A DNA stretch of 52,961 nucleotides from Escherichia phage mEp013: sequence record PP180002; one strand, given 5' to 3'. The position numbers were made by a program, and so were the translations under genes. Below the pieces are notes generated by a model. The model saw only the letters and a program-made list of their open reading frames with translations. It made no database searches and had not been told where the DNA came from. This document shows positions 183 through 23,193 of the stretch, in pieces. Numbering within the stretch: position 1 is the stretch's first letter; each line of letters opens with the position of its first letter.

Positions 183-185
183 ATT

Positions 186-1385
186 ATGCTTACAGATACC
201 AAATTACGAAACATTCACGGCAAGCCATACGATGGCCCGGAAGAAGTACCGGACGCTGGCGGATTGTCTGCCAGGATAAGCCCGCGCGGAGTTATATCTT
301 TCCAGTACCGCTACCGATTCAACGGCAAGCCTCGACGGATGAAGATCGGCACATACGGAGAAATAACACTCAAGGAAGCGCGGGCGGCGGTGGCGGAGCA
401 TAAGGAAGTTCTAAACTCAGGTCGAGATCCATCGGTAGCAAAAAGAATGCGCCTTTCCCGCGTTACGACACGGGCAACGGTTGAGGATATTGTAATGGAG
501 TACATGGGATCGCCGCAGGCAAGGAACATGGTCAATTATAAGCAGGTTGAGGCCATGCTAGATAAGCACGTCATAAAACCATACGGTGGCTATATAGTCG
601 ATGATATGGACGCTATGATGTGGGAAGGTGTTTTTAGAAGGGTTGCTAATGGTGGCGCACCAGTTCAGGCAGGTATAGTTCTCAACAGAATGAAGGCCGT
701 AATAAAATACGCCATGCGCCGCCGCCGCGTGGATCGTGACGACATATCATTACTGTGCGTTAAAGACGTTGGCAAAAAACCAGCGCAAGGCAAGCGCGTT
801 TTGTCAATACAGGAGATCCACCATCTAATTAGCCTTGTAGACAGTTCAAAAATGGCGAGGCTGAATCAGATATTGATGAAGCTGATTATATTTACCGGGT
901 GCAGGACAAGCGAACTAACAAACGCAAGGCGAGAGCATTTCGATCTTGATAGCTGTGTGTGGACGGTTCCGGGTGCATTAAGTAAGAACAGGAATGAGTT
1001 TAAACGCGGCTTATCCGACGTTAGCGTGGCTTTATTGCGTGAGGCTATGGATCTGCATAGCTTTGATTTTGTCTTCGTTCCTGTGCTTTCTGGAAGGGAT
1101 GAAGCGGTGGACAGGAGCGTTCCTAAAACAGCAGCAAGGGATTTAATGATGAGGATGTGCGGCGAGCCGTGGTCGTGTCACGATCTACGCCGCACCGTGA
1201 GGACAAACCTTTCAGCGCTTGGCGTTGCGCCTCACGTCGCGGAAAAGGTTTTGGGGCATAAGCTGGCGGGGATGTTGGCTATATACGATCAGTATGACTA
1301 TGTGAGGGAACAAATAGAGGCGATGAATAAACTGGCTGATTATTACATGAAGCCCATTGATTTACAAAATGAAATAACGTCCTGA
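186..1385 (+). CDS. int: tyrosine recombinase, P4-type phage integrase
   Basis: N-terminus MLTDTKLRN..GGL and C-terminal HxLRRT-type region typical of P4-like integrases; ATG at 186 chosen inside longer ORF 117..1385. Confidence 0.9.
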   Translation: MLTDTKLRNIHGKPYDGPEEVPDAGGLSARISPRGVISFQYRYRFNGKPRRMKIGTYGEITLKEARAAVAEHKEVLNSGRDPSVAKRMRLSRVTTRATVEDIVMEYMGSPQARNMVNYKQVEAMLDKHVIKPYGGYIVDDMDAMMWEGVFRRVANGGAPVQAGIVLNRMKAVIKYAMRRRRVDRDDISLLCVKDVGKKPAQGKRVLSIQEIHHLISLVDSSKMARLNQILMKLIIFTGCRTSELTNARREHFDLDSCVWTVPGALSKNRNEFKRGLSDVSVALLREAMDLHSFDFVFVPVLSGRDEAVDRSVPKTAARDLMMRMCGEPWSCHDLRRTVRTNLSALGVAPHVAEKVLGHKLAGMLAIYDQYDYVREQIEAMNKLADYYMKPIDLQNEITS

Positions 1386-1561
1386 TAACGGTAAAGAGAG
1401 CCGCCGCGCTTTAACGCTGGCATTCCCTTAACAGGTTCCGGAAAAGGAGTTCCGGAATCTTTCCATTTTTTAACCAGTTTAAAAAATGCTGACTTACTAA
1501 GCCCGCCTAACATTTTTTGCACTTGCTCGCGATTAATAAGTATTGTGCCGATTTTATCCAT
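1343..1561 (-). CDS. putative excisionase / AlpA-like HTH protein
   Basis: 72 aa, Xis/AlpA-like pattern (LINREQVQKMLG..FPEPVK..RGGSLYRYQDV); RBS GGGGA; TAATG coupling with upstream gene; convergent overlap with int 3' end lowers confidence. Confidence 0.4.
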   Translation of the reverse strand: MDKIGTILINREQVQKMLGGLSKSAFFKLVKKWKDSGTPFPEPVKGMPALKRGGSLYRYQDVISFCKSMGFM

Positions 1562-2208
1562 TATCTTTTCCCCGTGTATTCAACGTGTCCGATACATCCA
1601 TCAATAATAGCTTGCGCCATATTGCGGTAGTCGCACGAAAAATCGTTGTCGCGGTTAAAGTTAATCTCTTTCGCCGCATCTTCACCGATAACCTTAGTGG
1701 CCAGTGCGAAAGCAATTTCAGCAAGTGCTTTTTCTTTCGGATCTATCCAGCGACGATACCTAAAACTACTCCATCTTGCTGTTTCTTCACATTTTCCATT
1801 CCTTCTAACAAATATCCCTAATTCATCGCCAGTAAAAATATATTTAGCCACGCAGTATACAGGGGCAAATTCTCCTGGGTAAAATTCTAGCCATACATCT
1901 AATGGTGGTCTTTCCCCTTGCTGCCATTCCTCGGCTTTTGGTTTATCGCAATCATGTCGCTCATCTTCGATTAATTCATCAATAATCTTACTTTCTTTAT
2001 TCATACCGTCATCATCCTTTTCATGGAAACGTATAAAGCGCCACGTATTAGCCATCAACGTATAAGATTCGCCACCAACCTTAGATCCTGCGTAATACTC
2101 CGTACCAAAATCGTAATAACTAGAAAACGTTGTTACTTCAAAAGGCGGAATATCAACACGGAAGCGGTGGATCATTGTTCCTATTGCAGAAGGTGTTTTG
2201 CTTGTCAT
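1561..2208 (-). CDS. hypothetical protein (215 aa), cargo next to int/xis
   Basis: Long ORF with RBS GGTGG; no recognisable motif. Confidence 0.6.
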   Translation of the reverse strand: MTSKTPSAIGTMIHRFRVDIPPFEVTTFSSYYDFGTEYYAGSKVGGESYTLMANTWRFIRFHEKDDDGMNKESKIIDELIEDERHDCDKPKAEEWQQGERPPLDVWLEFYPGEFAPVYCVAKYIFTGDELGIFVRRNGKCEETARWSSFRYRRWIDPKEKALAEIAFALATKVIGEDAAKEINFNRDNDFSCDYRNMAQAIIDGCIGHVEYTGKR

Positions 2209-2209
2209 G

Positions 2210-2371
2210 TTACGCCACCGTTACATTGTCAACTTTGATAAAGTATTCAGGGTGATTTTCTATTTCGTGCTTGAAGTGCGCGTGACACAGTCGCCAATCA
2301 CGCGCCTGATTGTGAAAATAGTAAACGTATTCGCCATCAATCTTGTATAAAATGCCTGTAGGTTTAGCCAT
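2210..2371 (-). CDS. hypothetical small protein (53 aa)
   Basis: Hand-translated MAKPTGILYKIDGEYVYYFHNQARDWRLCHAHF...; fills gap between NinB and next gene; no clear SD. Confidence 0.3.
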   Translation of the reverse strand: MAKPTGILYKIDGEYVYYFHNQARDWRLCHAHFKHEIENHPEYFIKVDNVTVA

Positions 2372-2378
2372 GTAATAA

Positions 2379-2816
2379 TTAACCATTATTGCCCCAGCGT
2401 TTTATAAATTCCTCGTTTAACTTCGTATCGCCAGACCACTGAACACCATGTTCAGCGCCGAACGAGTAGATCAGTTCGATTAATTCGCTAAATTCTGCTT
2501 TACTCATCCGGCTGGTTGACGTACCCAGCACAACAAACCCTGATTTATCCAGGTTAGGGACAACGCCATATTTCTTAAGTCCGGCAGTAAATACCGCTTT
2601 CCAATCTTCCGGTGACAGCTTTTTGCCGTACCAATTAACCTGATCGCTAACGTCTGTCAGCAGCGCCCAAAGCAACGCGTTTTGACTCAGTGAGCGTGTT
2701 TTCTCCTTGATGGTAATTACCAGTGGGCTTTTGCTATCAGGCTGGATCTCCTTTATCTGCCTGATAGCGTTTTCTTTTACGGCGTCGTTTACTATTTCAA
2801 ATCTTATCTGCCTCAT
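2379..2816 (-). CDS. ninB: NinB-family recombination protein
   Basis: 145 aa; close match in length and motifs to lambda NinB as recalled (SLSQNALLWALLTDVS, VVPNLDKSGFVVLG). Confidence 0.8.
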   Translation of the reverse strand: MRQIRFEIVNDAVKENAIRQIKEIQPDSKSPLVITIKEKTRSLSQNALLWALLTDVSDQVNWYGKKLSPEDWKAVFTAGLKKYGVVPNLDKSGFVVLGTSTSRMSKAEFSELIELIYSFGAEHGVQWSGDTKLNEEFIKRWGNNG

Positions 2817-3010
2817 AATACACCGTTGCTATTTTTCCACTGTGCCCGCGCATACATGATCGCCCGCAAAGAAATTAGGCGCGAGCTTGTCATAAAAGCG
2901 CTTTTTAAGTACCTCATATCAACCACAACAGGTTTATCAGGATCGTCGCCGCGCATGTATTCCGCAATTGTGCTTAAGTCTTCAACGGTTAAATCTAACT
3001 CTTTATTCAT
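2813..3010 (-). CDS. hypothetical protein (65 aa)
   Basis: ORF with RBS AAGGGG; ATGA-type overlap with ninB. Confidence 0.5.
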   Translation of the reverse strand: MNKELDLTVEDLSTIAEYMRGDDPDKPVVVDMRYLKSAFMTSSRLISLRAIMYARAQWKNSNGVL

Positions 3011-3019
3011 GATCGCCCC

Positions 3020-3226
3020 TTACACAATCCGCATTGTGTTTCGTAATTCACCGCGCAACGCCTGCAAAGCGTAACTAATTGGCACAAAAGCACGGTTAAA
3101 TTTTACGTGCCTGTACTTGCGCATAAGTGGAGGTGTATAAACCATCGCACCGCAAGAATTGCATGGAAATGTAAAGTGAGATTCGTCAATGAATGTTTCA
3201 ACTGAATAAAAAATTACCCGTCTCAT
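3020..3226 (-). CDS. hypothetical protein (68 aa)
   Basis: ORF in operon context; start overlaps upstream gene end. Confidence 0.45.
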   Translation of the reverse strand: MRRVIFYSVETFIDESHFTFPCNSCGAMVYTPPLMRKYRHVKFNRAFVPISYALQALRGELRNTMRIV

Positions 3227-3780
3227 AATTCCAACCCCGTTTCGCCGTTAAGTTTTTCAATCTCAAATACTGGTTTATCAGGTAGCAGGCCGTTATTTTT
3301 CCGGTATTCGTTCAGACGGCTGTCAAAGTCAAACGCCAAATCATTGGCGTGACCAAATCGACCAGGTTTAAACAGTGAGTAAAAATTAACCCCGTGTCTA
3401 TTTGGATCAACGCAAAGCGTTTCATCAATCACCATTAAACGCAGAGTACGAGAAAGATAATTCCACGGTATTCCCGTTTCAGCGCTAATGTCGCGCATAC
3501 GCTTTTTAACGCTGTAGTCACCAAATAACGACGCGACACGCTCACGACGTTCAGCATATAACTGTTTGATACGATAACCCAGCAGACGGCGGCGGCGTCC
3601 AAAACATGTATACACGCGCTCGACGATACCGTTTTTTATTAAGTGTTTAATTGTCTCAGGCAGTAACCCGTCTTTGTCATATCCAGCCAATAACCCCGTT
3701 TTATTGCGTAACTGGTGCATTGTTGCGATGCCATCAAGTTCAAGGATATTGATAACTTTTGTTTCAAGTTCAGCGCTCAT
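3223..3780 (-). CDS. hypothetical protein (~185 aa; start uncertain, ORF extends to 3816)
   Basis: ATG at 3780 has GAGG RBS; GTG at 3816 lacks one. Confidence 0.55.
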   Translation of the reverse strand: MSAELETKVINILELDGIATMHQLRNKTGLLAGYDKDGLLPETIKHLIKNGIVERVYTCFGRRRRLLGYRIKQLYAERRERVASLFGDYSVKKRMRDISAETGIPWNYLSRTLRLMVIDETLCVDPNRHGVNFYSLFKPGRFGHANDLAFDFDSRLNEYRKNNGLLPDKPVFEIEKLNGETGLEL

Positions 3781-3859
3781 TGCTTTTAGCCTCATTAAAA
3801 ACGCGATAACAGCCACCAGAAAGCGGTAAACTTTCCGGTAAGCCGTTTGCTCATATTGA

Positions 3860-5275
3860 TTAAAAAGATGCGTTATTCTGATTGTTTCGTTGGTTAAAAC
3901 GGCTTGTGCGATGATTCATTGACTGAATGCACGCGGCAGCGGCCCTGCCCTGGTCGCATGGTATGATGTTGCCGTTATCGTCAAACCGCTGGTAGACAGT
4001 CCCCGTTTTCCCGTGACGGTTTTTCGATACAATGATTTCCATATATTCGCGGGCAACAGACTGCTCATCGTAGTAGCCATCGCGGTACACCATGATGATC
4101 CTGTCAGCGTCCTGTTCAAGATTGCCGGAATCACGAAGATCCGAATTGTTAGGACGCTTGTTCGGTCGTTCCTCAACGCGGCGGGATAATTGCGCCAGCG
4201 CCAGCACCGGTACGCGCAATTCTTTCGCCATCATCTTCAACGACCATGACAATTGCCCTACGGCGAGATCATGACGTTCAGCCTTAGCCAGCTTCATCAA
4301 CCCGATGTAGTCAATCATTACCATACCCATGTTGGGATGTTCCTGTTTCATCCGTTCCGTGGTGGCGCGTATTTCCTCAACCGTTAACTGCGACGCGTCA
4401 ACGATCCACACATCAAGATTAGCAAGTGCGCTCATACCCTGGCCGACATGCGCCCACCCCTCATCATCAAGTTTTACCGGATTGCGCAGGCAGTCAGTTG
4501 ATAAATTTCCAGCGCCAGCTATGGCGCGCTCAGTCATCTGATCGAGCGACATTTCAAGCGTGAAGAACAAAACGCCAACCCGCTGATCCTTGCTGCCAGG
4601 GTAAGGGCGTTCAGCAGCAGCGCGGGCAATTGCCAGCGCCAACGCAGATTTACCAGACCCAGGGCGTCCGGCGAGAAGCACCAGATCAGTAGCGTTAATG
4701 CCGCCTAACATTTCGTCGAGTGGTTCTATCCCTGTTTTGATGTTGTCAGAATTGACACCGCACTCCATGCGCTTACTTAAAACTTCTGTGTACTCCTGGA
4801 CAGCATCGCGCAACAGAACAGGGATAATCTTGTCTTTAGTTACCTTTAATTTTGAATACCGGGAATCAAAATCTTTCATCGTCTCTTTGACGACCTCAAG
4901 CGTCCCCGTCTCCAGTTTGTAGCGCATATCGTCGATGAGTTCTAACATCTGCCGACGCTGGTGCTCTTCACGTAATAGCTGTGCGTATCCCTTCAGGTTG
5001 GCAGCAGAAGGACACGATCGCGCCGTTTGCATCAGCGGTACAAAATTTTCGTTGCCAATCTCATCACCAACCAGCAAGGCGTCGATAAGATTCCTGTTTC
5101 TGGCTTGCGCCCTGATAATTTCAAACGCACGTTTATACAGCGGAATCGTGAACACTTCAGGATCAAGAGTGGCGAGAACATCTTGCGCGTTAGGAGTTAG
5201 GCCGCCTAACAGCAGCCCGCCGATAACTGACGCTTCACGTTCCTGCCGTAGTGAGTTTATTTGCTCAGTTACCAT
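3860..5275 (-). CDS. replicative DNA helicase, DnaB family
   Basis: 471 aa; DnaB N-terminal signature SVIGGLLLG and Walker A GRPGSGKS. Confidence 0.9.
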   Translation of the reverse strand: MVTEQINSLRQEREASVIGGLLLGGLTPNAQDVLATLDPEVFTIPLYKRAFEIIRAQARNRNLIDALLVGDEIGNENFVPLMQTARSCPSAANLKGYAQLLREEHQRRQMLELIDDMRYKLETGTLEVVKETMKDFDSRYSKLKVTKDKIIPVLLRDAVQEYTEVLSKRMECGVNSDNIKTGIEPLDEMLGGINATDLVLLAGRPGSGKSALALAIARAAAERPYPGSKDQRVGVLFFTLEMSLDQMTERAIAGAGNLSTDCLRNPVKLDDEGWAHVGQGMSALANLDVWIVDASQLTVEEIRATTERMKQEHPNMGMVMIDYIGLMKLAKAERHDLAVGQLSWSLKMMAKELRVPVLALAQLSRRVEERPNKRPNNSDLRDSGNLEQDADRIIMVYRDGYYDEQSVAREYMEIIVSKNRHGKTGTVYQRFDDNGNIIPCDQGRAAAACIQSMNHRTSRFNQRNNQNNASF

Positions 5276-5293
5276 TATGTCATTACCTCATGT

Positions 5294-6412
5294 TTACAAA
5301 ATGGAAAATTCAGGGTAATAAACAAAGCGCCCGATCTCCCCATGATCCGGGCTGTAAATAATAACCGCTGCCAGACGCCGCGACCGCCAGCCGCCATTAG
5401 TTGAGTAAGCGTCTTTACCCGCTAACGTGCCGTGATACTCAACAACGCCTAACGATGATTCGATTAGCCGTTGATGGTGCCAGTGCCCGCAATGAGCGTA
5501 AACCGCCGCAGACTTGCCAAAATCCTCACGCCAGTCAGCTACGCAAGCAGACAATAAATTTTCCGGCTTTTTGATAGTGTGCCCGTGGTGGTAAGCAAGG
5601 AATGTTTTTCCGTACTGTGTGTGGTGGACGATGGCAGGGGACACATCAACCGTCACGCGCGGTTCATCTTCGTAAAAAGCAGCCAGCGCCGCACGTAGCC
5701 AGATCATTCCTGACTGGTCGTGATTGCCGGATAACACCTGGATTTCAACATCCTTATGATTTAATAACATCTTCCCTACCGCCCGCCGGACCGACCGGAT
5801 CGCTACATAAACAAGTTTTGCGTAGCGACTATCTTGATCAAGAATGTGCCCGCTTGTTGGAGTCACCGGGACCATGCCGTCAGAGTGAAGCAGATCCCCA
5901 CCGAGAAGCAATACAGCTTTTTCAGACATCGGCGCAGCGCCTACAGCGTAGTCAAAGAAGTCATTCAACACGCGCTCAGCAATCCCAGTGTCGTAGCTCT
6001 CGCCACATTCGGCTTTATGAGCAAGCGCCCCGATATGCAGATCAAATACCGGATAAAGGGCCAGGCTTTTTTGAAAATCAATTTCAGGCACTGGCACGGC
6101 ATCCGCGCGTGGTATTTCCTCCGTGAATGCGTCGCAGGCAGCTTCCATTAGCCTTTCCATTTCATCACGGTCACGGGCTGTTTTAATCCAGCGCATGATC
6201 ACATTGCCGTTCTTATCGACTAGTAACGACTCGCCATTGACGCCAAAACCAGGCGCGCGGCGTGTTGACAATAAACCGCGTTTAGCCAGCTTTGCGCCAA
6301 GACGCTCGACGTTGCGTTTTGACATGCCATATTTTTCGGCGATCTGTTTATACGTTAAACCATTGTTATATTCAGCGATCAATTGCTCATCGCTGATTTT
6401 TCTTTGTGACAT
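5294..6412 (-). CDS. HTH domain fused to calcineurin-like metallophosphoesterase
   Basis: N-terminal HTH (LTYKQIAEKYGMSKRNVERL); phosphoesterase motifs GDLLHSD, SGNHD, GHWHH; RBS GAGGA. Confidence 0.75.
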   Translation of the reverse strand: MSQRKISDEQLIAEYNNGLTYKQIAEKYGMSKRNVERLGAKLAKRGLLSTRRAPGFGVNGESLLVDKNGNVIMRWIKTARDRDEMERLMEAACDAFTEEIPRADAVPVPEIDFQKSLALYPVFDLHIGALAHKAECGESYDTGIAERVLNDFFDYAVGAAPMSEKAVLLLGGDLLHSDGMVPVTPTSGHILDQDSRYAKLVYVAIRSVRRAVGKMLLNHKDVEIQVLSGNHDQSGMIWLRAALAAFYEDEPRVTVDVSPAIVHHTQYGKTFLAYHHGHTIKKPENLLSACVADWREDFGKSAAVYAHCGHWHHQRLIESSLGVVEYHGTLAGKDAYSTNGGWRSRRLAAVIIYSPDHGEIGRFVYYPEFSIL

Positions 6413-6445
6413 AGTGTTATTTCCTCTGGTTTACATTTTGTATAT

Positions 6446-6982
6446 TCATTGACAGCAAACAATCTCTTTATATGCCTCTTCTACCATGTCGAATACTTCC
6501 GGCCTGTAATAGAAAAACTCATTGCTGCCATCAAATTTTACAGGAAAGTTAATTTTATAATTGCTGAAATATTTATGCATCGTGCTTTCTAGTTTATGTA
6601 TATTTTCGGTTGACCCTTCTAACGTTTTCACGATACACAAATCAGGGATTCTAACGCCTGCTTTATGTGCGCTTTTTAATATTTCATTTCTTCGCTCGTT
6701 ATCCTTAACGCTTACACCGATTTTCATTTGTGTAGGTAATTCCAGATCATCAACCATGATGTAAAGTTTGCCATACTCATAACTAAGGAAACCGTATTTC
6801 GCGCATTTTGGGCAGCCGCGCCCGCGCTTAAGGTCGCTAGGAGTAGCCGACCACTCATGATCACAAACCTTACAGCGGCATGATACTTTTGTTTTGCAAT
6901 TGATAATTTCTCCCAACACTTCAACATTGGGGTTAATTCTTGAGATAGCGGCAACTTGCTCCTTATGAGTTAACTTGCGCAT
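6446..6982 (-). CDS. zinc-ribbon plus GIY-YIG-like (T5orf172/MUG113-type) protein, single-repeat paralog of 39479..40789
   Basis: One LTHKEQVAAI..C.C..C.HEW..GCPKC repeat then GKLYIMVDD..KIGVS..ERRN..EFFYY domain shared with the 436-aa protein; ATG at 6982 has RBS AGGAG. Confidence 0.7.
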   Translation of the reverse strand: MRKLTHKEQVAAISRINPNVEVLGEIINCKTKVSCRCKVCDHEWSATPSDLKRGRGCPKCAKYGFLSYEYGKLYIMVDDLELPTQMKIGVSVKDNERRNEILKSAHKAGVRIPDLCIVKTLEGSTENIHKLESTMHKYFSNYKINFPVKFDGSNEFFYYRPEVFDMVEEAYKEIVCCQ

Positions 6983-7115
6983 TGTCATAGCTCCTAAAAA
7001 CGCATCAGACGCGCTACAACGCAAAAAATCCCACCGCGTAACCCACTTGTAAGGGTGCAGTGTCTTTTTTGCGCCAGAAGCGCAATCAGGTGGCTAATTT
7101 TTGATTTACAGACTG

Positions 7116-7217
7116 GTAGGTATGTTATGGATTGACTAGAAGGAACAAACCGCCGAACAAAGCGACGTTAACAGCAATTGCCGCAGCGATGGCAAAAGCC
7201 AGGGCGAAAACGTGTTT
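7116..7217 (-). CDS. small hydrophobic membrane peptide (33 aa)
   Basis: Hand-translated MDGKHVFALAFAIAAAIAVNVALFGGLFLLVNP; RBS GAGAGGA; below the 60-aa ORF-track cutoff. Confidence 0.4.
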
Positions 7218-7359
7218 ACCGTCCATTTTTAAATCCTCTCTGTAACGCTCTATAACGAGCTAATCGCAAAAAGGTATGCAAGTGTAGCACCCAATGCTTT
7301 TTAGCTCGCTGGTGAGCTTGTTTTGTGGGTAATTTTGGATTTTTGTGTATTGTGGTTGG

Positions 7360-8358
7360 TCAAAGAGCGCCAGCGCGTGTATCACGTAGCGTTTTTGGTT
7401 TAAGCAGGAAATCAAGTGTCGCAGTAAAGCCATTGCCGAAGTAAAAATCTGAAGCCGTGTTTTTGAACGTTTCGAAGTAGGCAACAAAGCCGTTAATGCT
7501 TTTATCTTTCAGGTAGTCAGTGAACGCATAGATCTTTCGTTCAAGATCCCGATCCAGTTCAGCAGGTGGCAACAGGCCATCAAACGTGATGTTAAACTCT
7601 TCCACCACATCGGCAGCGCTTACAGTAGCTGTAACTCTTCGCCATTGTTCAGCCTTTGCCCGGTATTCATCAAAGCGGCTTACCCTGGCGATCTTTATCG
7701 GTTCCGGTTTAAACGACCATGTTTCCGCTATCCAGTCGATAACCATGATCAAATCTTCTTCAGTATATGCGCCTCGTGTTTTTGTTTTCTTCAGTAGGTT
7801 AACAAAGTATTTTTTCTCCTTATGCTTGCTATTAAACTTGTTGTTATAGTGATCGAGTACGCGCGACGCTGCCAAATCAGCCGCCCGATCTTCTTCGCTG
7901 ATAGACTCGTCTTTTTCCAATACACGAAGTGTATTGTTTTTAATGTTCTCTTTACTGGTTATATATGACTGGTTAGGGTGACTCTGTGACACTACCCCCG
8001 GTGACTCTGTGTCACTACCCTGGTGACTCTGTGACACTACCCCCGGTGTCACAGTGACACTACCATGTAATGACGGGAGGACTATTACATAGAAATTACT
8101 AGTTTGCTCTTTTCCTCCGATCAAGTATCTTGGTTGTTTAATCAACAACCCTTTTTCACAAAGTGAGTCTACAGCCCTCATAGCTGTTCTTTTGCTGATC
8201 TCACACTCCTTTGCTATGTGATGGTAAGAAGGGTAACACTCGCCGTTATCATTAGCGTTATCAGCTAACTTCAACAGCACTAGTTTGTGCATTGGGTCGC
8301 CGACCTCAGTATGGAAGACTTCTACCATTAGCCGCATACTCATAAGCATTAACCTCAT
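7360..8358 (-). CDS. replication initiator, lambda O-like (phage replisome organiser N-terminal domain) with internal iterons
   Basis: N-terminal wHTH (ISKRTAMRAVDSLCEKGLLIK); in-frame repeated GVVSQSH peptide encoded by four 22-bp iterons; start not resolved (8358 vs downstream ATGs). Confidence 0.75.
   Translation of the reverse strand: MRLMLMSMRLMVEVFHTEVGDPMHKLVLLKLADNANDNGECYPSYHHIAKECEISKRTAMRAVDSLCEKGLLIKQPRYLIGGKEQTSNFYVIVLPSLHGSVTVTPGVVSQSHQGSDTESPGVVSQSHPNQSYITSKENIKNNTLRVLEKDESISEEDRAADLAASRVLDHYNNKFNSKHKEKKYFVNLLKKTKTRGAYTEEDLIMVIDWIAETWSFKPEPIKIARVSRFDEYRAKAEQWRRVTATVSAADVVEEFNITFDGLLPPAELDRDLERKIYAFTDYLKDKSINGFVAYFETFKNTASDFYFGNGFTATLDFLLKPKTLRDTRAGAL
7977..8066. repeat. four ~22-bp iterons GGTGACTCTGTGACACTACCC inside the O-like gene (candidate origin of replication)
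   Basis: Direct repeats at 7977, 8000, 8022, 8045, each with an internal inverted GTGAC/GTCAC; mirrors lambda ori inside O. Confidence 0.7.
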
Positions 8359-8364
8359 GACGAA

Positions 8365-8610
8365 CTAAAACATTAACTGATAAACACAGAAGAAACCTGG
8401 CAGCTGACTGATTAGGCCGCTTCTTTTCAGTTGATGCAGTGCAGAGATAGTGTCACGTAACGAAATTTCGCACATTTCAGCGATTTCTTCCGGCGTTACT
8501 TCGCTTTTGCCGTTGCATCCGGCCTTTGTTGCCAGTGCAATTAAGATGAGTTTTTGCGTCGGATCATTGTTATTCAGGCGAATATCAAAAGCCTTGCGAA
8601 CGTAATACAT
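8365..8610 (-). CDS. Cro-position winged-HTH DNA-binding protein (81 aa)
   Basis: First gene divergent from cI; RBS AGGAGAAAG; aligns with N-terminal domain of the O-like protein (DP.QKLILI..EISLRD); may be Cro- or CII-like. Confidence 0.55.
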   Translation of the reverse strand: MYYVRKAFDIRLNNNDPTQKLILIALATKAGCNGKSEVTPEEIAEMCEISLRDTISALHQLKRSGLISQLPGFFCVYQLMF

Positions 8611-8915
8611 GTTTCTTTCTCCTATGGTTAGGTGAACGCGCGGGCGGGTATCCAATTAGCATTAGATAGCAGTGACTGACCGCTGAACAGATCCCGCCGT
8701 TGCGTGATATTTGTTTTTCGCTTCGCAGCGACACCGGGTTTTTAAAGAGCTTTTAAGGTATGTGCCTTTTGTGCTTTCCCTTATCTCTTTCCTTGCATCA
8801 TTGCAAGTTCGGCTTTACCTTGTCTGTAAGTTTACAGAATGGCGTTAACAGATCAAGGATTGAAAATTACATTTTGTGACTTGCATCAAAATTTTTTAGG
8901 TTATAGGGTAGCGAC

Positions 8916-9563
8916 ATGAAAACAAAATGGTATGACCTGGCAAAACAACTCATGCGGGCGCAGGGCATGAGTCAAGATTCATTGGCAGATCTCATGGGGA
9001 TCACTAAAGGCGGCTTGTCACACTGGCTTAACGGTCGCCGCGAGCCAAATCTTGAAGACATTGCGCGGATTATGCGGGCGCTTGGGCGTCGGCAGTTCAC
9101 TGTCACACATGATGGAATGGTCATTGATGACTCTGTTTCTAACACGTTGCCGGGAGCGCCACCGCGTGATTTAGGCAGTTACCCGGTTGTTGACTGGAAG
9201 GATGTAGTAAACAATATGGAAGATGCAAGGCGATCAACATTACCACACGTTACGACTAGCGTTATTTGTTCAGATGATAGTTATTGGCTGGTAGCTAAAG
9301 GCGAATCAATGAACGCGCCGCAAGGATTGAGTATACCAGCGGGGACGATGATACTTGTCGATCCGCACGCGCCAGCTATTGACGGAAAACTGGTTATAGC
9401 CCAACTGGAGGAGGGGCAGATACCGACGTTTAAACAGTTGATTATTGATGGAGGCAGAAAACTTTTGCGTTCACTGAATCCGTTGTATCCGCCAATCCCT
9501 ATGAATCCAGAATCTAAAATCATAGGCGTGGTAGTGGATGCGAAGATCGTAAACCTGCCATAA
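8916..9563 (+). CDS. cI: CI-type repressor (HTH_XRE plus S24 LexA-like peptidase domain)
   Basis: N-terminal HTH (MSQDSLADLMGITKGGLSHWLNG); C-terminal autocleavage domain with GESM Ser and downstream Lys. Confidence 0.85.
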   Translation: MKTKWYDLAKQLMRAQGMSQDSLADLMGITKGGLSHWLNGRREPNLEDIARIMRALGRRQFTVTHDGMVIDDSVSNTLPGAPPRDLGSYPVVDWKDVVNNMEDARRSTLPHVTTSVICSDDSYWLVAKGESMNAPQGLSIPAGTMILVDPHAPAIDGKLVIAQLEEGQIPTFKQLIIDGGRKLLRSLNPLYPPIPMNPESKIIGVVVDAKIVNLP

Positions 9564-9568
9564 ACACT

Positions 9569-9686: not shown

Positions 9687-9715
9687 TTGACTCGGTGTTT
9701 TACGGGGCGTATATT
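9687..9715 (+). promoter_or_regulatory. PL-like sigma70 promoter (TTGACT-17-TATATT)
   Basis: Near-consensus hexamers with 17-nt spacer; flanked by 8-bp inverted repeat TTGACTCG/CGAGTCAA; TATACAAAATGG motif directly upstream. Confidence 0.65.
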
Positions 9716-9756
9716 GCGAGTCAAAGGAGGAAGCAAGGCAGGGAAAGAAGGTTACT

Positions 9757-9794
9757 TGCTCTTTAATAATCTGGTCAGCCGCTGGAAGTGCGGC
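9757..9794 (+). promoter_or_regulatory. nutL-like site: boxA (TGCTCTTTAATAA) plus boxB hairpin (GCCGC-TGGAAGT-GCGGC)
   Basis: boxA nearly identical to rrn/lambda boxA consensus; 5-bp stem 7-nt loop hairpin 8 nt downstream; sits between promoter and N-like gene. Confidence 0.55.
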
Positions 9795-9850
9795 AATTAA
9801 CGAAGATGATTTTTTATTAAGTATCATCAAGGATATAAGGAGATCAGATC

Positions 9851-10141
9851 ATGACAGTTACAATCATGTATGGCAAATGTGACAGTAAACTGAATGCCAG
9901 GGAACGCAGAAGAATAAAAAGAGAAAACGAAAGAAAATCATCACCTGCAATCAATAAAACGGACAATGTGGATAAAGCCATTCGCTTTGCAAACGAGGAA
10001 AGATGCAAACCCAATGGCATTAAAGAACGTCGCAAAGGATCAGTTAAATGGTATAAGGAAAACGAAAGCGGCAACTACTACCACGCAACGCAACCACGCC
10101 AGTTAGGGGAAAAACCCCTTGATAAAGTCCGTTACCATTAA
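9851..10141 (+). CDS. N-like antitermination protein (arginine-rich motif)
   Basis: 96 aa, basic; N-terminal ARM NARERRRIKRENERK; first gene after PL/nutL; strong RBS TAAGGAG. Confidence 0.5.
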   Translation: MTVTIMYGKCDSKLNARERRRIKRENERKSSPAINKTDNVDKAIRFANEERCKPNGIKERRKGSVKWYKENESGNYYHATQPRQLGEKPLDKVRYH

Positions 10142-10171: not shown

Positions 10172-10294
10172 ATGGTTATTCATGCGCTCCAATTCAAACT
10201 GGCGGTAGCGGAAATGCTTCATGATGCCGAAATGTGGAGCGCCGCGAATAAAGCCTTGTATGTAGTGTTAACAGCGAAGGAGATCAAAGAGTGA
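10172..10294 (+). CDS. hypothetical small protein (40 aa)
   Basis: Hand-translated; strong RBS GGAGGTG; stop overlaps erf GTG start. Confidence 0.45.
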   Translation: MVIHALQFKLAVAEMLHDAEMWSAANKALYVVLTAKEIKE

Positions 10295-10932
10295 AAACAG
10301 AGTTACACAAAAAACTGTGGACGATTCAGCAAACGCTGAATGCACCAAAAGGGCAATACAATAAATTCGGTGGATATTCATACAGATCTGCGGAGGATAT
10401 TTTAGAGGCAGTTAAGCCACTTCTACAGAATGTCACGTTAATGGTTAGCGATGAAATTGTTTTAATCGGTGATCGCTATTATGTGAAAGCAACGGCAACG
10501 CTAAGCGACGGCGAGGATTCAATTTCAGCCACTGCGTTCGCGCGTGAGGAAAAAGAGCAAAAAGGAATGACGGCAGGGCAGCTAACTGGCGCGACATCAA
10601 GTTACGCGCGGAAATATGCCCTGAACGGTCTGTTCTGTATAGACGATGCGAAAGATTTAGACACTGACGCTTACGCGAAGCAGACAGGCCAGCAGCCTCG
10701 CCAGCAGAAAAACACACCAAAACAACAACCACAGCAGCAGAAAGCGCAGCCAAATCCTGATGAAGTATTAGCACGTTTCTGTGATGCAGCAGCGAAAGCG
10801 CCTGATGCTAATAAGTTACGCGAGATCTTCGGCAAGTGCTGGAAGCTGTTACCTGAAAATTCAGAGCAACGAGTCAAAGCAAAAGATATTTACCAAATAA
10901 GGCTTGAGGAGTTAAATGGAAGTATTAACTAA
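10291..10932 (+). CDS. erf: Erf-family single-strand annealing protein
   Basis: LNAPK.QYN.FG.Y.YRS.EDILE.VKPLL N-terminal pattern as in P22 Erf (from memory); Q/P-rich C-terminus; RBS AAGGAG with GTG start. Confidence 0.75.
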   Translation: MKTELHKKLWTIQQTLNAPKGQYNKFGGYSYRSAEDILEAVKPLLQNVTLMVSDEIVLIGDRYYVKATATLSDGEDSISATAFAREEKEQKGMTAGQLTGATSSYARKYALNGLFCIDDAKDLDTDAYAKQTGQQPRQQKNTPKQQPQQQKAQPNPDEVLARFCDAAAKAPDANKLREIFGKCWKLLPENSEQRVKAKDIYQIRLEELNGSIN

Positions 10933-11524
10933 GACATGTAATAAATGCGGTAGGCGACTACCGCTTGATTGTTTTCCTAAACATAAAGGCTGCAAATATG
11001 GTGTTACTAGCACATGCGTTGAGTGCACTAAAATAAGCGTGAAAGCATTTAGGGAAAGGAATAAAGATAAAATAGCTGAACGAAATAGAAAATGGAGGGA
11101 AGAACATAAGGAAGAGATACGAGAGAAAGATAAGAAATACTACGAAGAACATAAGAAAGAATGTAATGATCGCGCGAAAAAATATAGAGAAAACAACAGG
11201 AAGAAAATTATAGAATATAAAAATGATTGGGTTAAAAGAAACGAAGAAAGATTGAAGGAGTACCGGAGAATATATCACGAAGATTATAAAGAAAGAAATA
11301 AGGCTGAACTAAAAGCAAGAACAAAACTAAGTAACGCCATTAGAGATGGCAAGATATTTAGGCCTGATAGGTGTGATCGTTGCGGAAATAAATGTACTCC
11401 TGATGGTCATCACTGGAATTATGCGTTTCCGCTTAACGTTATTTGGTTATGTAGATCTTGTCACAAAATAGTTCATGTTAAATTCGGGTGTATCCACGAA
11501 GATATTAACGGGGAGATCAATTAA
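10916..11524 (+). CDS. HNH endonuclease-like protein
   Basis: Cys-rich N-terminus; lysine-rich centre; C-terminal CDRCG..HHWNY..WLCRSCH HNH-type motif. Confidence 0.6.
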   Translation: MEVLTKTCNKCGRRLPLDCFPKHKGCKYGVTSTCVECTKISVKAFRERNKDKIAERNRKWREEHKEEIREKDKKYYEEHKKECNDRAKKYRENNRKKIIEYKNDWVKRNEERLKEYRRIYHEDYKERNKAELKARTKLSNAIRDGKIFRPDRCDRCGNKCTPDGHHWNYAFPLNVIWLCRSCHKIVHVKFGCIHEDINGEIN

Positions 11525-11988
11525 TGAGCTTAAATTCAATCACGCTGGGTGGTAACGTTGGTAACGATCTTGAAGTGCGCTACACGCAAAACGGGAAGGC
11601 GATTGGTAGTTTTCCGTTAGCTGTAACGAATGGCTACGGTGATAATAAGCGGACAATGTGGATCACTTGCCTGGTATTTGGTGAGCGTGCGGAAAAATTA
11701 GCTCCACATATCCGCAAGGGTGGAAAAATAGTGGTAAGCGGTCGCCTGGATGTTCGGCAATATGACCGGAACGACGGCACGAAGGGGACTGCGGTAGAAG
11801 TGGCGGTTAACGAATTTGAATTCATGAATGTTAACCAACAAGGCCAGCAGCAAGGACAGCAGCAGAAAGCGCCGCCGCAGCAGCATAATAATAACGGGAA
11901 TAATGTTCCTCCTGATTTCGATGACGACATCCCATTTGCTCCTATGGGGTTACAATATGGCAAAAGCAGGATCTACGCGCTATCTTGA
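11524..11988 (+). CDS. ssb: single-stranded DNA-binding protein
   Basis: OB-fold SSB pattern, Gln/Gly linker, acidic tail DDDIPF. Confidence 0.9.
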   Translation: MSLNSITLGGNVGNDLEVRYTQNGKAIGSFPLAVTNGYGDNKRTMWITCLVFGERAEKLAPHIRKGGKIVVSGRLDVRQYDRNDGTKGTAVEVAVNEFEFMNVNQQGQQQGQQQKAPPQQHNNNGNNVPPDFDDDIPFAPMGLQYGKSRIYALS

Positions 11989-12250
11989 TGCGCCGCCGAT
12001 TCCGCGAACAAAAGAGCAAGTATTAAAAGAAGCCCGTGATCAAATCGATCATGGGCTTTTTTTATGCGGCACGGCAGCGGAACGGATGGCGAAAAGATTT
12101 AGTGACCTGTACGCAAAACAAATATGGTTCGACAACTGGCAGGCAAGTTTTTATCCACTGCAAAGAAAACCGGATATGCACTGGCCTGAATATGTCGATC
12201 CACGTATGCGCAAATATCGCGGGCGTATGGGCCAGGTCATTAACGATTAA
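11957..12250 (+). CDS. hypothetical protein (97 aa)
   Basis: ATG at 11957 inside ORF 11828..12250; overlaps ssb 3' end. Confidence 0.5.
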   Translation: MAKAGSTRYLDAPPIPRTKEQVLKEARDQIDHGLFLCGTAAERMAKRFSDLYAKQIWFDNWQASFYPLQRKPDMHWPEYVDPRMRKYRGRMGQVIND

Positions 12251-15426: not shown

Positions 15427-15966
15427 ATGAAAAATGATTTTGGAGGCAGTAATACGCCAAAAGAGATTAAAGACCTGTGGCAGACGCCGAAACCAGTTTT
15501 CAGGGGAATGGATCGTGAATTTGAATTTGTCGCTGACGTTGCGGCAAATAAGGAAAATGCGCTAATTCCGCGATATATAACCGAAGAAATGGACACGCTA
15601 CATTATCCGTGGGGAGCGGTGGCAATGCCTGGTGAATATGTATGGATGAATCCGCCATATTCGAATCCTGGGCCATTCGTTGACAAGGCGGCGCTAGAAC
15701 ATCAACGGAATCACATCGGTTGCGTAATGTTATTGCCCGCTGACGTTTCTGTTAGCTGGTTCATGAACGGCGTGGAGACTGCAAACGAATGCCGATTAAT
15801 CACGCGCGGGCGTCTGGCGTTTATCAATGCTGCGACTGGTAAGCCAGTAAGCGGAAACAACAAAGGCAGCTTGTTTTTGATCTGGCATCCACGGTGCAGA
15901 CATGAATGTATTTTTACACACATAACGCGTAAAGAGCTATATGCAAGAGGTGCAGAAAATGACTAG
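15427..15966 (+). CDS. phage Dam-like DNA N6-adenine methyltransferase
   Basis: 179 aa; catalytic NPPY-type motif (WMNPPYS); RBS GGGGG. Confidence 0.75.
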   Translation: MKNDFGGSNTPKEIKDLWQTPKPVFRGMDREFEFVADVAANKENALIPRYITEEMDTLHYPWGAVAMPGEYVWMNPPYSNPGPFVDKAALEHQRNHIGCVMLLPADVSVSWFMNGVETANECRLITRGRLAFINAATGKPVSGNNKGSLFLIWHPRCRHECIFTHITRKELYARGAEND

Positions 15967-17701: not shown

Positions 17702-17860
17702 AATTTACAAAATGGCGTCATTGCGTGATGTGGATCACATAATGGCGCTTTTCACCTTGTTCTGACGTATCCATTTTGTATACTTCAATCAAGCAAAATG
17801 CTCTTTAAAAATCCGGCAGCGCTGAAATGCGTAGAAATCACCTGAAAAGGAGAGAGCATT

Positions 17861-18037
17861 ATGCCTTTTGATAATTACCAATGGCATGACGACTATGAAC
17901 GAGAAAGCGTCATGCGTGCAATGTGCAATGTATGCAGCACGAAGAAAGGAGACTGCAACGAGTGCAACGAATGTTTAGATCATTGGCTAAGGGCCGGACA
18001 CGCCGAAAGGCTGAACGAAACAGAGAATCAAAAATAA
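17861..18037 (+). CDS. small Cys-rich protein (58 aa)
   Basis: Hand-translated; CNVCSTKKGDCNECNEC cluster; RBS AAAGGAG. Confidence 0.4.
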   Translation: MPFDNYQWHDDYERESVMRAMCNVCSTKKGDCNECNECLDHWLRAGHAERLNETENQK

Positions 18038-18051
18038 TCGGGGTGGTTTTT

Positions 18052-19061: not shown

Positions 19062-19240
19062 AAAACGAAATTAAAGATCTGCAAATAGATATTCAGCGCG
19101 ATGAGCATGATTTAGCTACAGTCAGACAAATCCAGGCTTTCCACATGAGAGAACTGCTTGCGCTGAAAGAGCTTGAAAGAAAGTTGGTCCAATCAATATC
19201 TGATCGTAAACGTCTGGTTGCTCGTTACGGGGGCAAATAA
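19058..19240 (+). CDS. hypothetical protein (60 aa, coiled-coil)
   Basis: ORF coupled between rusA and Q. Confidence 0.45.
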   Translation: MKNEIKDLQIDIQRDEHDLATVRQIQAFHMRELLALKELERKLVQSISDRKRLVARYGGK

Positions 19241-23165: not shown

Positions 23166-23193
23166 ATTACCTAACAATGCGAAACTGTAACTA

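What the first reader, a model, noticed from the sequence alone, without database searches (positions are those of the whole stretch)
1343..9563. Module order differs from lambda: replication operon inverted next to int, while recombination, nin, Q and late genes share one strand with cI
Read directly: int (+), then a minus-strand operon from the Cro-position gene through O-like, DnaB, ninB to a Xis-like gene; cI (+) is followed on the same strand by a terminator, PL-like promoter, nut site, N-like gene, erf, ssb, ninG, rusA, Q and all late genes. Relative to lambda, the rightward replication operon ends at int and Q sits at the end of the PL-like operon, implying different timing logic for late-gene activation.
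Basis: partly seen in the sequence, partly recalled or inferred. Interest (0 to 1): 0.45.

Follow-up and report, generated by a model that had tools for sequence, protein, structure and literature searches.

The report
Known mEp021-type phage early-region layout
The unusual gene order is real, but it is the already published, conserved layout of the mEp021-like (mEpimmI) E. coli phages, best read as a lambda-type map with its early control region flipped once, so it is ordinary for that group.

Summary
Thirteen consecutive minus-strand genes run from a first gene beside the repressor (8610) through an O-like initiator, DnaB and ninB to a small HTH gene that overlaps the int 3' end. cI (+) is followed by a terminator, a promoter, a nut site, an N-like gene, erf, ssb, abc2, ninG, rusA, Q, lysis genes and virion genes.

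It is not a mis-assembly. The same order occurs in mEp044, mEp010, mEp554, mEp515, mEp021 and MagusPhagus, and in an E. coli chromosomal prophage read in full. The central junction alone matches 35 complete E. coli chromosomes.

The window belongs to the published mEpimmI group. Its cI is 98.6% identical to Rep021, and its N-like protein is 97.9% identical to Gp17. It has exactly three boxA sites, at the published nutL, nutR1 and nutR2 positions.

Against P22, HK97 and lambda, five homologues (ninB, DnaB, O, cI, erf) are strand-flipped and order-reversed. ninG, rusA, Q, lysis and tail genes stay collinear. That is the signature of one inversion. The convergent int/xis arrangement is as in phi80.

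Xis-like and Q each remain the distal gene of an N-dependent early operon. The claim of "different timing logic" is therefore only weakly supported. Novelty: already known.

The parts
186..1385 (+). Tyrosine integrase. It is type II of the mEpimmI scheme and phi80-like in sequence and orientation.
   Evidence: Pfam Phage_integrase and Arm-DNA-bind_3; PHROG 1. 97% identical to mEp044 int. 32% identical to phi80 int over 395 aa.
1343..1561 (-). Small winged-HTH protein and candidate excisionase. It is the last gene of the leftward operon and overlaps the int 3' end by 43 bp, convergently.
   Evidence: ORF and sequence. PHROG 4745 DNA-binding, E 4e-4. AlpA only at E 0.2. AlphaFold2 model from a 17-sequence alignment, pLDDT 79.7; its best PDB matches are MerR-type winged HTH domains, none significant.
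1561..2386 (-). Two genes of unknown function (215 aa and 58 aa) between ninB and the xis-like gene.
   Evidence: No Pfam or PHROG hit. Conserved in relatives.
2379..2816 (-). ninB. It marks the left end of the block that is inverted relative to lambdoid phages.
   Evidence: PF05772, E 1.7e-47. 52-53% identical to the ninB of lambda, P22 and HK97, on the opposite strand.
3860..5275 (-). DnaB-type replicative helicase.
   Evidence: PF03796, E 3.4e-76. 57% identical to P22 gp12, strand-flipped.
5294..6412 (-). HTH plus metallophosphoesterase protein between the initiator and the helicase.
   Evidence: PHROG 704, E 5.6e-141. Closest relatives outside the group are phages such as Klebsiella Sushi and KOX1, at 60-66% identity.
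7360..8358 (-). O-like replication initiator with four internal 23-bp iterons at 7977-8064 (candidate origin).
   Evidence: PHROG 428/8540. Tandem repeat of period 23, 3.9 copies. C-terminal part similar to P22 gp18 and HK97 O.
8365..8610 (-). First gene of the leftward operon ('Cro position'). It is an 81-aa winged HTH and a paralogue of the initiator's N-terminal domain.
   Evidence: PHROG 4617/8540. 37% identical to O-like residues 21-79, E 2e-10. In MagusPhagus it varies together with the O N-terminal domain and not with cI.
8715..8752 (-). nutL: boxA GCTCTTTAA (8750-8742) plus a boxB-like hairpin.
   Evidence: One of only three boxA matches in the window. Aligned with the other two. Hairpin predicted. 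Position as published for mEp021 (PMC11893012).
8829..8856 (-). Candidate leftward early promoter, TTGATC-16-TAAACT.
   Evidence: Read from the sequence. Conserved in five genomes. Below the threshold of the scan tool, so inferred only.
8916..9563 (+). CI-type repressor (HTH plus S24 domain), immunity I.
   Evidence: Pfam HTH_3 and Peptidase_S24. 98.6% identical to Rep021 of mEp021. Rep021 was shown experimentally to confer immunity (PMC11893012).
9569..9594 (+). Intrinsic terminator after cI.
   Evidence: 7-bp GC-rich stem plus TTTCTTT. Annotated as T2 in mEp044 and TERM_1 in mEp021.
9687..9715 (+). Rightward early promoter, TTGACT-17-TATATT.
   Evidence: 10 of 12 consensus matches.
9756..9796 (+). 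nutR1: boxA plus a boxB-like hairpin.
9851..10141 (+). N-like antiterminator (Gp17 orthologue) with an arginine-rich motif (R17, R19, R20, R21, R24).
   Evidence: PHROG 271, E 1.2e-10. 97.9% identical to mEp021 Gp17. Residues read from the translation.
10291..12250 (+). Recombination genes erf, ssb and an abc2-like anti-RecBCD gene, in the same order as in the PL operons of P22 and HK97. An HNH gene is inserted at 10916-11524.
   Evidence: Pfam ERF and SSB. PHROG 656 abc2. erf is 53-55% identical to P22 and HK97 erf, strand-flipped. The HNH gene is absent from mEp044 and strain 190.
15427..15966 (+). Dam methylase. It is the first gene clearly collinear with lambdoid nin regions and lies just outside the right breakpoint.
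   Evidence: PF05869, E 3.4e-52. 43% identical to HK97 gp62, which is adjacent to ninB in HK97, on the same strand.
17798..17836 (+). nutR2: boxA plus a boxB-like hairpin, 1.4 kb upstream of Q.
17861..19962 (+). ninF, ninG, rusA, a small ORF, and Q.
   Evidence: Pfam NinG (E 2e-66), RusA, and Antiterm Q (E 4.6e-30). PHROGs. Collinear with lambda, P22 and HK97.
23137..23211 (+). Candidate late promoter, qut-like pause element and terminator: -10 TAAAAT 23160-23165, AACAAT 23173-23178, hairpin 23193-23211. It lies directly upstream of the holin gene at 23236.
   Evidence: Terminator scan. The segment is almost invariant in five genomes while the flanking coding sequence diverges. Its geometry resembles lambda PR' TAAATT-N6-AACGAT. 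Function is inferred.

Best explanation
The window is a member of the mEpimmI (mEp021-like) temperate coliphages, and the flagged region is that group's conserved early-control architecture.

A CI-type repressor gene sits between two early promoters.

- Leftward transcript: it crosses nutL and expresses a small initiator-like HTH protein, an O-like initiator that carries the origin iterons, a phosphoesterase, the DnaB helicase, ninB, and finally a small HTH protein that is the candidate excisionase. It ends convergently on int.
- Rightward transcript: it starts after the cI terminator and crosses nutR1. It expresses the N-like antiterminator Gp17, then erf, ssb and abc2, then accessory and methylase genes. 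It crosses a third nut site (nutR2) and reaches ninF, ninG, rusA and Q.
- Late step: Q then most likely acts at a late promoter, pause element and terminator placed just before the holin gene.

The regulatory cascade (CI, then N with nut sites, then Q) is therefore the lambda one.

Relative to lambdoid maps, the block from ninB through cI to abc2 is inverted once, and int and xis are convergent as in phi80. The two distal genes, xis-like and Q, kept their places at the ends of the two early operons. The promoter-proximal payloads, replication versus N plus recombination, changed sides.

Basis of each step:
- Shown here: gene identities, strands, conservation and synteny.
- Shown by others in mEp021: Rep021 immunity, and Gp17 action at three nut sites.
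- Inferred: the single-inversion history, the promoter assignments, the late-promoter candidate and the excisionase role.
For: - Group membership: 90-93% nucleotide identity to mEp044, mEp010, mEp554 and mEp515 over 74-91% of the first 20 kb. cI is 98.6% identical to Rep021, N-like 97.9% to Gp17, and int 97% to mEp044 int.
- Gene calls.
- Same order elsewhere: mEp044 and mEp021 annotations, the chromosomal prophage of E. coli strain 190 next to ogt, and the independently assembled MagusPhagus, which also shows tail fibre followed by int across the circular junction.
- Central junction: it matches 35 complete E. coli chromosomes, and in 4 of them the match covers at least 80% of the query. The 8596-8930 region is nearly invariant in five genomes.
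- Inversion signature: ninB, DnaB, O, cI and erf are strand-flipped and order-reversed against P22 and HK97. dam, ninG, rusA, Q, lysis and tail genes are collinear. HK97 has ninB directly next to dam, and these two genes lie on opposite sides of the block here.
- Preserved internal orders: N then erf then abc2, and O then DnaB then ninB, each match the corresponding lambdoid operon.
- phi80 has int (+) convergent with xis (-).
- There are exactly three boxA GCTCTTTAA sites, at the published nutL, nutR1 and nutR2 positions (PMC11893012).
- Iterons lie inside the O-like gene.
- The late-promoter candidate is conserved.
Against: - The direction and number of rearrangement events cannot be established from extant genomes.
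- The leftward operon is a mosaic. Its 372-aa phosphoesterase is closest to phages outside the lambdoid set used here, and the head genes have no match in the four lambdoid references. Assembly from modules rather than inversion of a lambdoid ancestor therefore remains possible.
- No promoter, terminator or nut function was tested here. The boxB hairpins are no more stable than shuffled sequence.
- The N-like protein has no detectable similarity to lambda N by BLASTP and is below the Pfam N_peptide cut-off.
- The excisionase assignment is positional.
- The 2023 paper on Gp17 could not be read, so its results are cited only as summarised in PMC11893012.
Confidence: 0.8

Rival explanations
1. 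Mis-assembly or chimera: the divergent junction near 8600-8900, or the int/xis junction, is an artefact of joining two phages.
For: None found. The only prompt is that the order is unusual compared with lambda.
Against: The same contiguous order occurs in five separately sequenced mEp phages, in MagusPhagus from another country and in the chromosomal prophage of strain 190. The central junction matches 35 complete E. coli chromosomes. Region 8596-8930 is 93% identical column by column across five genomes.
Confidence: 0.01
2. Independent modular assembly: the layout is not derived from a lambdoid map by inversion. It is a separate ancestral arrangement that later acquired lambdoid-type genes by horizontal exchange.
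For: - The replication operon contains genes closest to phages outside the lambdoid references (phosphoesterase 60-66% identical).
- Head and packaging genes have no lambdoid match.
- The group forms its own proteome-level clade (PMC11893012).
- Identities to lambdoid homologues are only 30-57%.
Against: Within each block the gene order matches the lambdoid operon order: O, DnaB, ninB; N, erf, abc2; dam, ninF, ninG, rusA, Q. The five shared early genes are exactly order-reversed and strand-flipped. One inversion explains this more simply than many independent acquisitions.
Confidence: 0.17
3. Programmed invertible segment: the early region flips between two orientations by site-specific recombination, as the G, C and P segments of some phages do.
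For: phi80, whose int/xis layout is similar, carries a Pin invertase.
Against: No invertase gene was found in the region. No long inverted repeats flank the block; the best pairs are 16-34 nt, and the longest (34 nt, 76% complementary) is at the level I estimated for chance. All related genomes examined show one orientation.
Confidence: 0.01
4. Truly different late-timing circuit: placing Q in the same operon as N, with an extra nut site and possibly an internal promoter before it, uncouples late-gene activation from replication and changes the lysis timing or decision logic compared with lambda.
For: - Q lies 9.5 kb from the early promoter, behind several predicted terminators.
- nutR2 and a conserved promoter-like element (TTGTTC-16-TATACT, 17757-17784) directly precede ninF to Q.
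- The late-promoter candidate is 3.2 kb downstream of Q instead of adjacent to it.
- There is no Cro-family gene next to the operators.
Against: Both early operons carry nut sites, and both presumably answer to the same repressor, although no shared operator was identified. Q would then still be a delayed-early product that depends on N, as in lambda. No expression data are available.
Confidence: 0.2

Closest known systems
mEpimmI phages (archetype mEp021, MH706966; also mEp044, mEp010, mEp013, mEp515, mEp554; Negrete-Mendez et al. 2025, PMC11893012)
   Same: Nucleotide identity is 89-93% over most of the early region, and the gene order is identical. The repressor, the N-like Gp17 and Q are 94-99% identical. 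The three nut sites and the type II integrase are present. The window is a member of this group.
   Different: Only accessory content differs. The window has an HNH gene between erf and ssb, and an endonuclease-like gene at 6446-7024, that some relatives lack. The O-like protein (76-82%) and orf215 (54-73%) are more divergent.
Lambdoid phages lambda, P22 and HK97
   Same: - Shared gene families: CI, ERF, Abc2, DnaB, O C-terminal domain, NinB, NinG, RusA, Q, Rz, and tail proteins M, L, K, I, J.
- The same three-tier control: repressor, N with nut sites, Q.
- Origin iterons lie inside the initiator gene.
   Different: - The block from ninB to abc2 is inverted, so replication runs towards int, and N plus recombination runs towards Q.
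- There is no Cro-family protein.
- There are three nut sites rather than two.
- The candidate late promoter is 3.2 kb from Q.
- Head genes are unrelated.
- The group is reported not to give viable hybrids with lambda (PMC11893012).
Phage phi80 integration module
   Same: int is on the same strand as the late genes, downstream of attP, and convergent with a small xis gene that ends an early operon. The integrase is 32% identical over 395 aa.
   Different: In phi80 the operon ending in xis is the N and recombination (PL) operon. Here it is the replication operon. The convergent overlap is 43 bp here and 4 bp in phi80.

Membership tests
mEpimmI (mEp021-like) phage group | High nucleotide similarity and synteny with mEp021-group genomes | tested here: met
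   Megablast gives 90-93% identity over 74-91% of the first 20 kb to four mEp phages, and 89% to mEp021. The gene-by-gene order is identical.
mEpimmI (mEp021-like) phage group | Immunity-I repressor (Rep021 type: Cro/CI HTH plus S24 domain) | tested here: met
   98.6% amino-acid identity to the mEp021 repressor over 215 aa. Pfam HTH_3 and Peptidase_S24.
mEpimmI (mEp021-like) phage group | Gp17 N-like antiterminator with conserved arginines R17, R19, R20, R24, and nutL, nutR1 and nutR2 | tested here: met
   97.9% identity to Gp17, with the arginines present in the translation. There are exactly three boxA sites, at 8742-8750 (-), 9758-9766 (+) and 17800-17808 (+).
mEpimmI (mEp021-like) phage group | One of four integrase types tied to the ydaM, abgT or mppA insertion sites | tested here: met
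   int is 97% identical to mEp044 int (type II) and 94% to that of the strain 190 prophage, which lies next to ogt. The window carries no host flank, so its own insertion site cannot be read.
mEpimmI (mEp021-like) phage group | Nus dependence, immunity-I phenotype, siphovirus morphology | not testable with these tools
   These are phenotypes reported in PMC11893012.
Lambdoid phages (shared genome organisation) | Canonical order: int-xis, PL operon (N, recombination), cI, cro, replication, nin, Q, lysis, structural genes | tested here: not met
   Five early homologues are strand-flipped and order-reversed against P22, HK97 and lambda, while the distal nin, Q and late genes are collinear.
Lambdoid phages (shared genome organisation) | Cro-family repressor as first gene of the operon divergent from cI | tested here: not met
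   The first gene matches replication-initiator N-terminal families (PHROG 4617/8540) and the phage's own O-like protein. In MagusPhagus it diverges to 38% while cI (96%) and the whole intergenic region stay conserved.
Lambdoid phages (shared genome organisation) | CI, N and Q regulators all present | tested here: met
Lambdoid phages (shared genome organisation) | Ability to form viable hybrids with lambda | not testable with these tools
   Reported as negative for the group in PMC11893012.
Lambda N / nut antitermination | Arginine-rich N peptide | tested here: inconclusive
   PHROG 271 N-like, E 1.2e-10. Pfam N_peptide scores 16.4 bits, below the 27.9 cut-off. BLASTP finds no similarity to lambda N. 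Function was shown for the 98%-identical Gp17 according to PMC11893012.
Lambda N / nut antitermination | boxA followed by a boxB hairpin downstream of each early promoter | tested here: met
   Three aligned sites carry GCTCTTTAA plus a short hairpin. The hairpin energies are not distinguishable from shuffled sequence.
Excisionase / AlpA-type recombination directionality factors | Small winged-HTH protein of the Xis/AlpA/HTH_17 families encoded next to int | tested here: inconclusive
   The gene is adjacent to int and convergent with it. AlpA is found only at E 0.2, and HTH_17 in 1 of 17 family members. The AlphaFold2 model (pLDDT 79.7) has its best matches to MerR-type winged HTH domains, but at E of 0.2 or worse and TM 0.5 or less. 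Homologues are few and mostly from E. coli.
Lambda Q late antitermination | Q protein of the lambda family | tested here: met
   PF03589, E 4.6e-30. 34% identical to lambda Q over 238 aa.
Lambda Q late antitermination | Late promoter with a promoter-proximal -10-like pause element, followed by a terminator | tested here: inconclusive
   The candidate is TAAAAT-N7-AACAAT followed by a strong hairpin at 23193-23211. It is nearly invariant in five genomes and resembles lambda TAAATT-N6-AACGAT. The -35 element is poor and not conserved, and there is no functional test.

The most novel reading that the evidence does not exclude
The most novel reading still open has three parts.

- The switch may work without a Cro-type antagonist. 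The gene in the Cro position is a small paralogue of the initiator's DNA-binding domain. It travels with the origin-specificity cassette rather than with the immunity module.
- Q may be physically uncoupled from its target, because the candidate late promoter lies 3.2 kb away.
- A third nut site and a possible internal promoter may gate Q.

Together these would give a lysis-lysogeny and late-timing circuit that differs mechanistically from lambda, despite using homologous parts.
Probability: 0.15. Interest if true: 0.5.

Novelty: already known. Interest (0 to 1): 0.15.

Why it matters
The value of this check is mainly negative. The odd gene order is a real, conserved and already published genome architecture (mEp021 genome 2018; Gp17 and nut sites 2023; group description 2025). 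It is neither an assembly artefact nor a new system.

Two modest points may be useful to people who work on these phages.
- The layout reduces to the lambdoid map with one inversion plus a phi80-type int/xis module. The regulatory cascade stays intact. The inverted order may also contribute to the reported failure to form viable hybrids with lambda, though that link is my inference.
- The gene in the Cro position belongs to the replication and origin cassette, not to the immunity module. This leaves open whether these phages have a Cro function at all.

Tried and rejected
- Mis-assembly was rejected on conservation.
- A programmed invertible segment was rejected. There are no flanking long inverted repeats, no invertase, and only one orientation in all relatives. 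I judged the 34-nt inverted pair at 6410/10141 to be at chance level.
- Operator search: repeats shared by the two early-promoter regions gave only short, unconvincing matches (CTTGCA half-sites near 8793-8808 and 8880-8888; a 15-nt repeat at 8922 and 9677). The operators are left unassigned.
- Xis identity: Pfam and NCBIfam searches, BLASTP against phi80 Xis, a single-sequence AlphaFold2 model (pLDDT 52, unusable), a profile search against PDB sequences (only spurious hits) and Foldseek on the better model (no significant hit). None was decisive.
- Direct similarity of the N-like protein to lambda N: none.
- The Arch Virol 2023 paper on Gp17 is not held in the library.
- I tried to polarise the inversion using the phosphoesterase gene as a marker. 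Its relatives are phages outside the lambdoid references, so it says nothing about orientation.
- No tRNA genes were found.

Full report
**1. What is in the sequence**

int occupies 186-1385 on the + strand.

A tightly packed minus-strand series then follows:
- a 72-aa HTH gene (1343-1561) whose 3' end overlaps the int 3' end by 43 bp;
- two unknown genes;
- ninB (2379-2816);
- two small ORFs;
- a MarR-like gene;
- DnaB (3860-5275);
- a 372-aa HTH-phosphoesterase (5294-6412);
- an endonuclease-like gene (6446-7024);
- an O-like initiator (7360-8358) that contains four 23-bp iterons at 7977-8064;
- an 81-aa first gene (8365-8610).

On the + strand, in order:
- cI (8916-9563), a hairpin terminator (9569-9586) and a strong promoter match (9687-9715);
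- the N-like gene (9851-10141);
- erf, an HNH gene, ssb and an abc2-like gene;
- a run of small genes;
- dam, two further genes and a cytosine methylase;
- ninF, ninG, rusA and Q (19240-19962);
- thirteen small ORFs, then holin, endolysin and Rz;
- terminase, portal, capsid and tail genes.

GC skew flips sign where the coding strand flips.

There are three caveats:
- A few minus-strand inserts lie among the late genes.
- The 'Xis-like' label is positional.
- The 'Cro-position' gene is not a Cro-family protein.

**2. What the window is**

Megablast of the first 20 kb finds Escherichia phages mEp044, mEp010, mEp554 and mEp515 at 90-93% identity over 74-91% of the query. It finds mEp021 at 89%.

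Gene by gene:
- the repressor is 98.6% identical to Rep021 of mEp021;
- the N-like protein is 97.9% identical to Gp17;
- Q is 94% identical to its mEp021 counterpart;
- int is 97% identical to the type II integrase of mEp044, but only 50% to the mEp021 integrase.

The annotated records of mEp044 and mEp021 show the same order and strands.

The group is described in Negrete-Mendez et al. 2025 (PMC11893012). That paper reports:
- 48 genomes with high synteny;
- a CI-like repressor shown experimentally to confer immunity;
- four integrase types;
- an N-like antitermination system in which Gp17 acts at nutL (between the repressor gene and the leftward operon), nutR1 (upstream of gp17) and nutR2 (downstream of the methylase genes).

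In the window, the boxA core GCTCTTTAA occurs exactly three times, at 8742-8750 (-), 9758-9766 (+) and 17800-17808 (+). Chance would give 0.64 occurrences. The three sites align, each with a short hairpin downstream. The window is thus a member of this published group.

The record of mEp013 did not appear among the hits. From the accession series I infer that the window may be that phage or a close relative.

**3. Not an artefact**

- A query spanning the O-like gene to erf (7360-10932) matches 35 complete E. coli chromosomes; in 4 of them the match covers at least 80% of the query.
- In strain 190 the whole prophage lies next to ogt. Its order is int (+), HTH (-), ninB (-), helicase (-), HTH genes (-), LexA-family repressor (+), ERF (+), SSB (+), NinG, RusA and antiterminator (+).
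- MagusPhagus, isolated in the USA and deposited with a different circular permutation, has the same order. It also shows that in the circular genome the tail-fibre genes are followed by int on the same strand.
- Region 8596-8930 is nearly invariant in five genomes.

**4. Relation to lambdoid maps**

- Against P22 and HK97, ninB, DnaB, the O C-terminal domain, cI and erf all match on the opposite strand, and their order is exactly reversed.
- dam, ninG, rusA, Q, the lysis genes and tail genes M, L, K, I, J match on the same strand in the same order.
- Inside each block the order of transcription is the lambdoid one: O, helicase, ninB; N, erf, abc2; dam, ninF, ninG, rusA, Q.
- HK97 has ninB directly next to dam. 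Here those two genes sit at the two sides of the flipped block.

The simplest description is a single inversion. The left breakpoint lies between ninB and the xis-proximal genes. The right breakpoint lies between abc2 (ending at 12250) and dam (15427).

The integrase is phi80-like (32% identity), and phi80 has the same convergent int (+) / xis (-) arrangement.

No long inverted repeats flank the block, and no invertase is present. This is therefore a fixed rearrangement, not a switch.

The paper on the group does not use the words inversion, inverted or orientation. This framing may not have been stated before, but it adds little beyond the published maps.

**5. How it most likely works**

- Shown by others for mEp021: Rep021 confers immunity, and Gp17 antiterminates at the three nut sites (PMC11893012).
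- Shown here: the parts, their order and their conservation.
- Inferred: derepression fires a leftward promoter (candidate TTGATC-16-TAAACT, 8856-8829) and the rightward promoter at 9687-9715.
- Gp17, made from the rightward transcript, modifies polymerase at nutR1, nutL and nutR2.
- The leftward operon then delivers replication functions, with the xis-like gene last.
- The rightward operon delivers recombination functions and accessory genes, with Q last.

Predicted intrinsic terminators lie along both operons. One hairpin sits just upstream of nutR2.

Downstream of Q there is no intergenic gap for a late promoter. The only strong terminator before the lysis genes is at 23193-23211. It is preceded by TAAAAT-N7-AACAAT, and this 75-bp segment is almost invariant in five genomes whose flanking coding sequence diverges. 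Lambda PR' has TAAATT-N6-AACGAT, the pause element needed for Q loading. I therefore place the candidate late promoter 3.2 kb downstream of Q, directly before the holin gene.

**6. The 'different timing logic' claim**

Both distal genes kept their positions.
- The xis-like gene still ends an early operon that carries a nut site and runs into the int/att region.
- Q still ends the other early operon and leads into the late genes.

The difference is that replication and Q are no longer co-transcribed, and N shares an operon with Q. Q lies 9.5 kb from its promoter, against roughly 6 kb in lambda by my reckoning from the annotated map. It also has a dedicated nut site 1.4 kb upstream.

These are quantitative differences within the same cascade. 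A truly different circuit remains possible but has no direct support (rival 4).

**7. The Cro-position gene**

The 81-aa protein matches replication-initiator N-terminal families and the phage's own O-like protein (37% identity, E 2e-10).

In MagusPhagus:
- cI is 96% identical to the window's cI;
- the whole intergenic region, including nutL and the leader, is conserved up to the start codon;
- the first gene drops to 38% identity;
- the N-terminal half of the O-like protein is unrelated, while its C-terminal half is 67% identical.

The gene therefore travels with the origin-specificity cassette and not with the immunity module. That argues against a classical Cro role. This is an inference from co-variation, not a test.

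**8. The Xis-like gene**

Family searches are weak: AlpA at E 0.2 and a PHROG DNA-binding family at E 4e-4. Homologues are few.

A 17-sequence alignment gave an AlphaFold2 model at pLDDT 79.7 with a strand-helix-helix-wing-helix topology. Its best PDB matches are MerR-type winged HTH domains, but none is significant.

The excisionase role remains a positional inference.

**9. Verdict**

The finding is real but already known. Its interpretation is partly supported. Interest is low.

Noticed in passing
window 8365-8610 (-); L008 955-2265: The first gene of the leftward operon is a paralogue of the O-like initiator's N-terminal winged HTH domain. In MagusPhagus it diverges to 38% identity together with the O N-terminal domain, while cI (96%) and the whole intergenic region stay conserved up to its start codon. 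It looks like part of an origin-specificity cassette rather than a Cro.
   Followed up: partly
window 23137-23211 (+): Candidate late promoter, pause element and terminator (TAAAAT-N7-AACAAT, then a strong hairpin) directly before the holin gene and 3.2 kb downstream of Q. It is almost invariant in five genomes while the neighbouring coding sequence diverges, and its geometry resembles lambda PR'.
   Followed up: partly
window 17713-17784 (+): Between the methylase gene and nutR2 lie a hairpin with a T run and a conserved promoter-like element (TTGTTC-16-TATACT, 17757-17784). An internal promoter feeding nutR2, ninF, ninG, rusA and Q is possible but untested.
   Followed up: partly
window 10916-11524 (+): An HNH-type endonuclease gene sits between erf and ssb. 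It is absent from mEp044 and the strain 190 prophage, and only 34% similar to a gene at a different position in mEp021. It is probably a mobile insertion.
   Followed up: partly
window 6446-7024 (-) and 39479-40789 (-): Two endonuclease-like genes share the same PHROG families (681/559); the first also matches Pfam T5orf172 and zinc-ribbon domains. The first occupies a variable slot between the O-like gene and the phosphoesterase, where relatives carry other genes. The second lies on the opposite strand inside the tail gene cluster, in a low-GC stretch (0.416 at 40-42 kb).
   Followed up: no
window 5294-6412 (-): The 372-aa HTH-phosphoesterase in the replication operon has its closest relatives outside the group in phages such as Klebsiella Sushi and KOX1 (60-66% identity; more than 2000 phage records match). 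From memory these are T1-like virulent siphophages. The replication operon is therefore a mosaic.
   Followed up: partly
window 161-185 and 52891-52915 (+); terminator about 52865-52890: A 25-nt sequence (TGTGTACCAAAT.GTGACCAAA..T) is repeated near both ends of the window, upstream of int and after the tail-fibre gene. These may be integrase arm sites flanking attP. A strong hairpin terminator follows the tail-fibre gene.
   Followed up: no
window 1343-1460: int and the xis-like gene overlap convergently by 43 bp. The predicted terminator for int (1433-1460, +) lies inside the xis-like coding sequence, and no minus-strand terminator follows the xis-like gene. Antiterminated leftward transcription would therefore run antisense into int.
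   Followed up: no
window 7977-8064: Four 23-bp direct repeats (86% matches) lie inside the O-like gene. They encode the repeated GVVSQSH peptide and are the likely origin iterons.
   Followed up: partly
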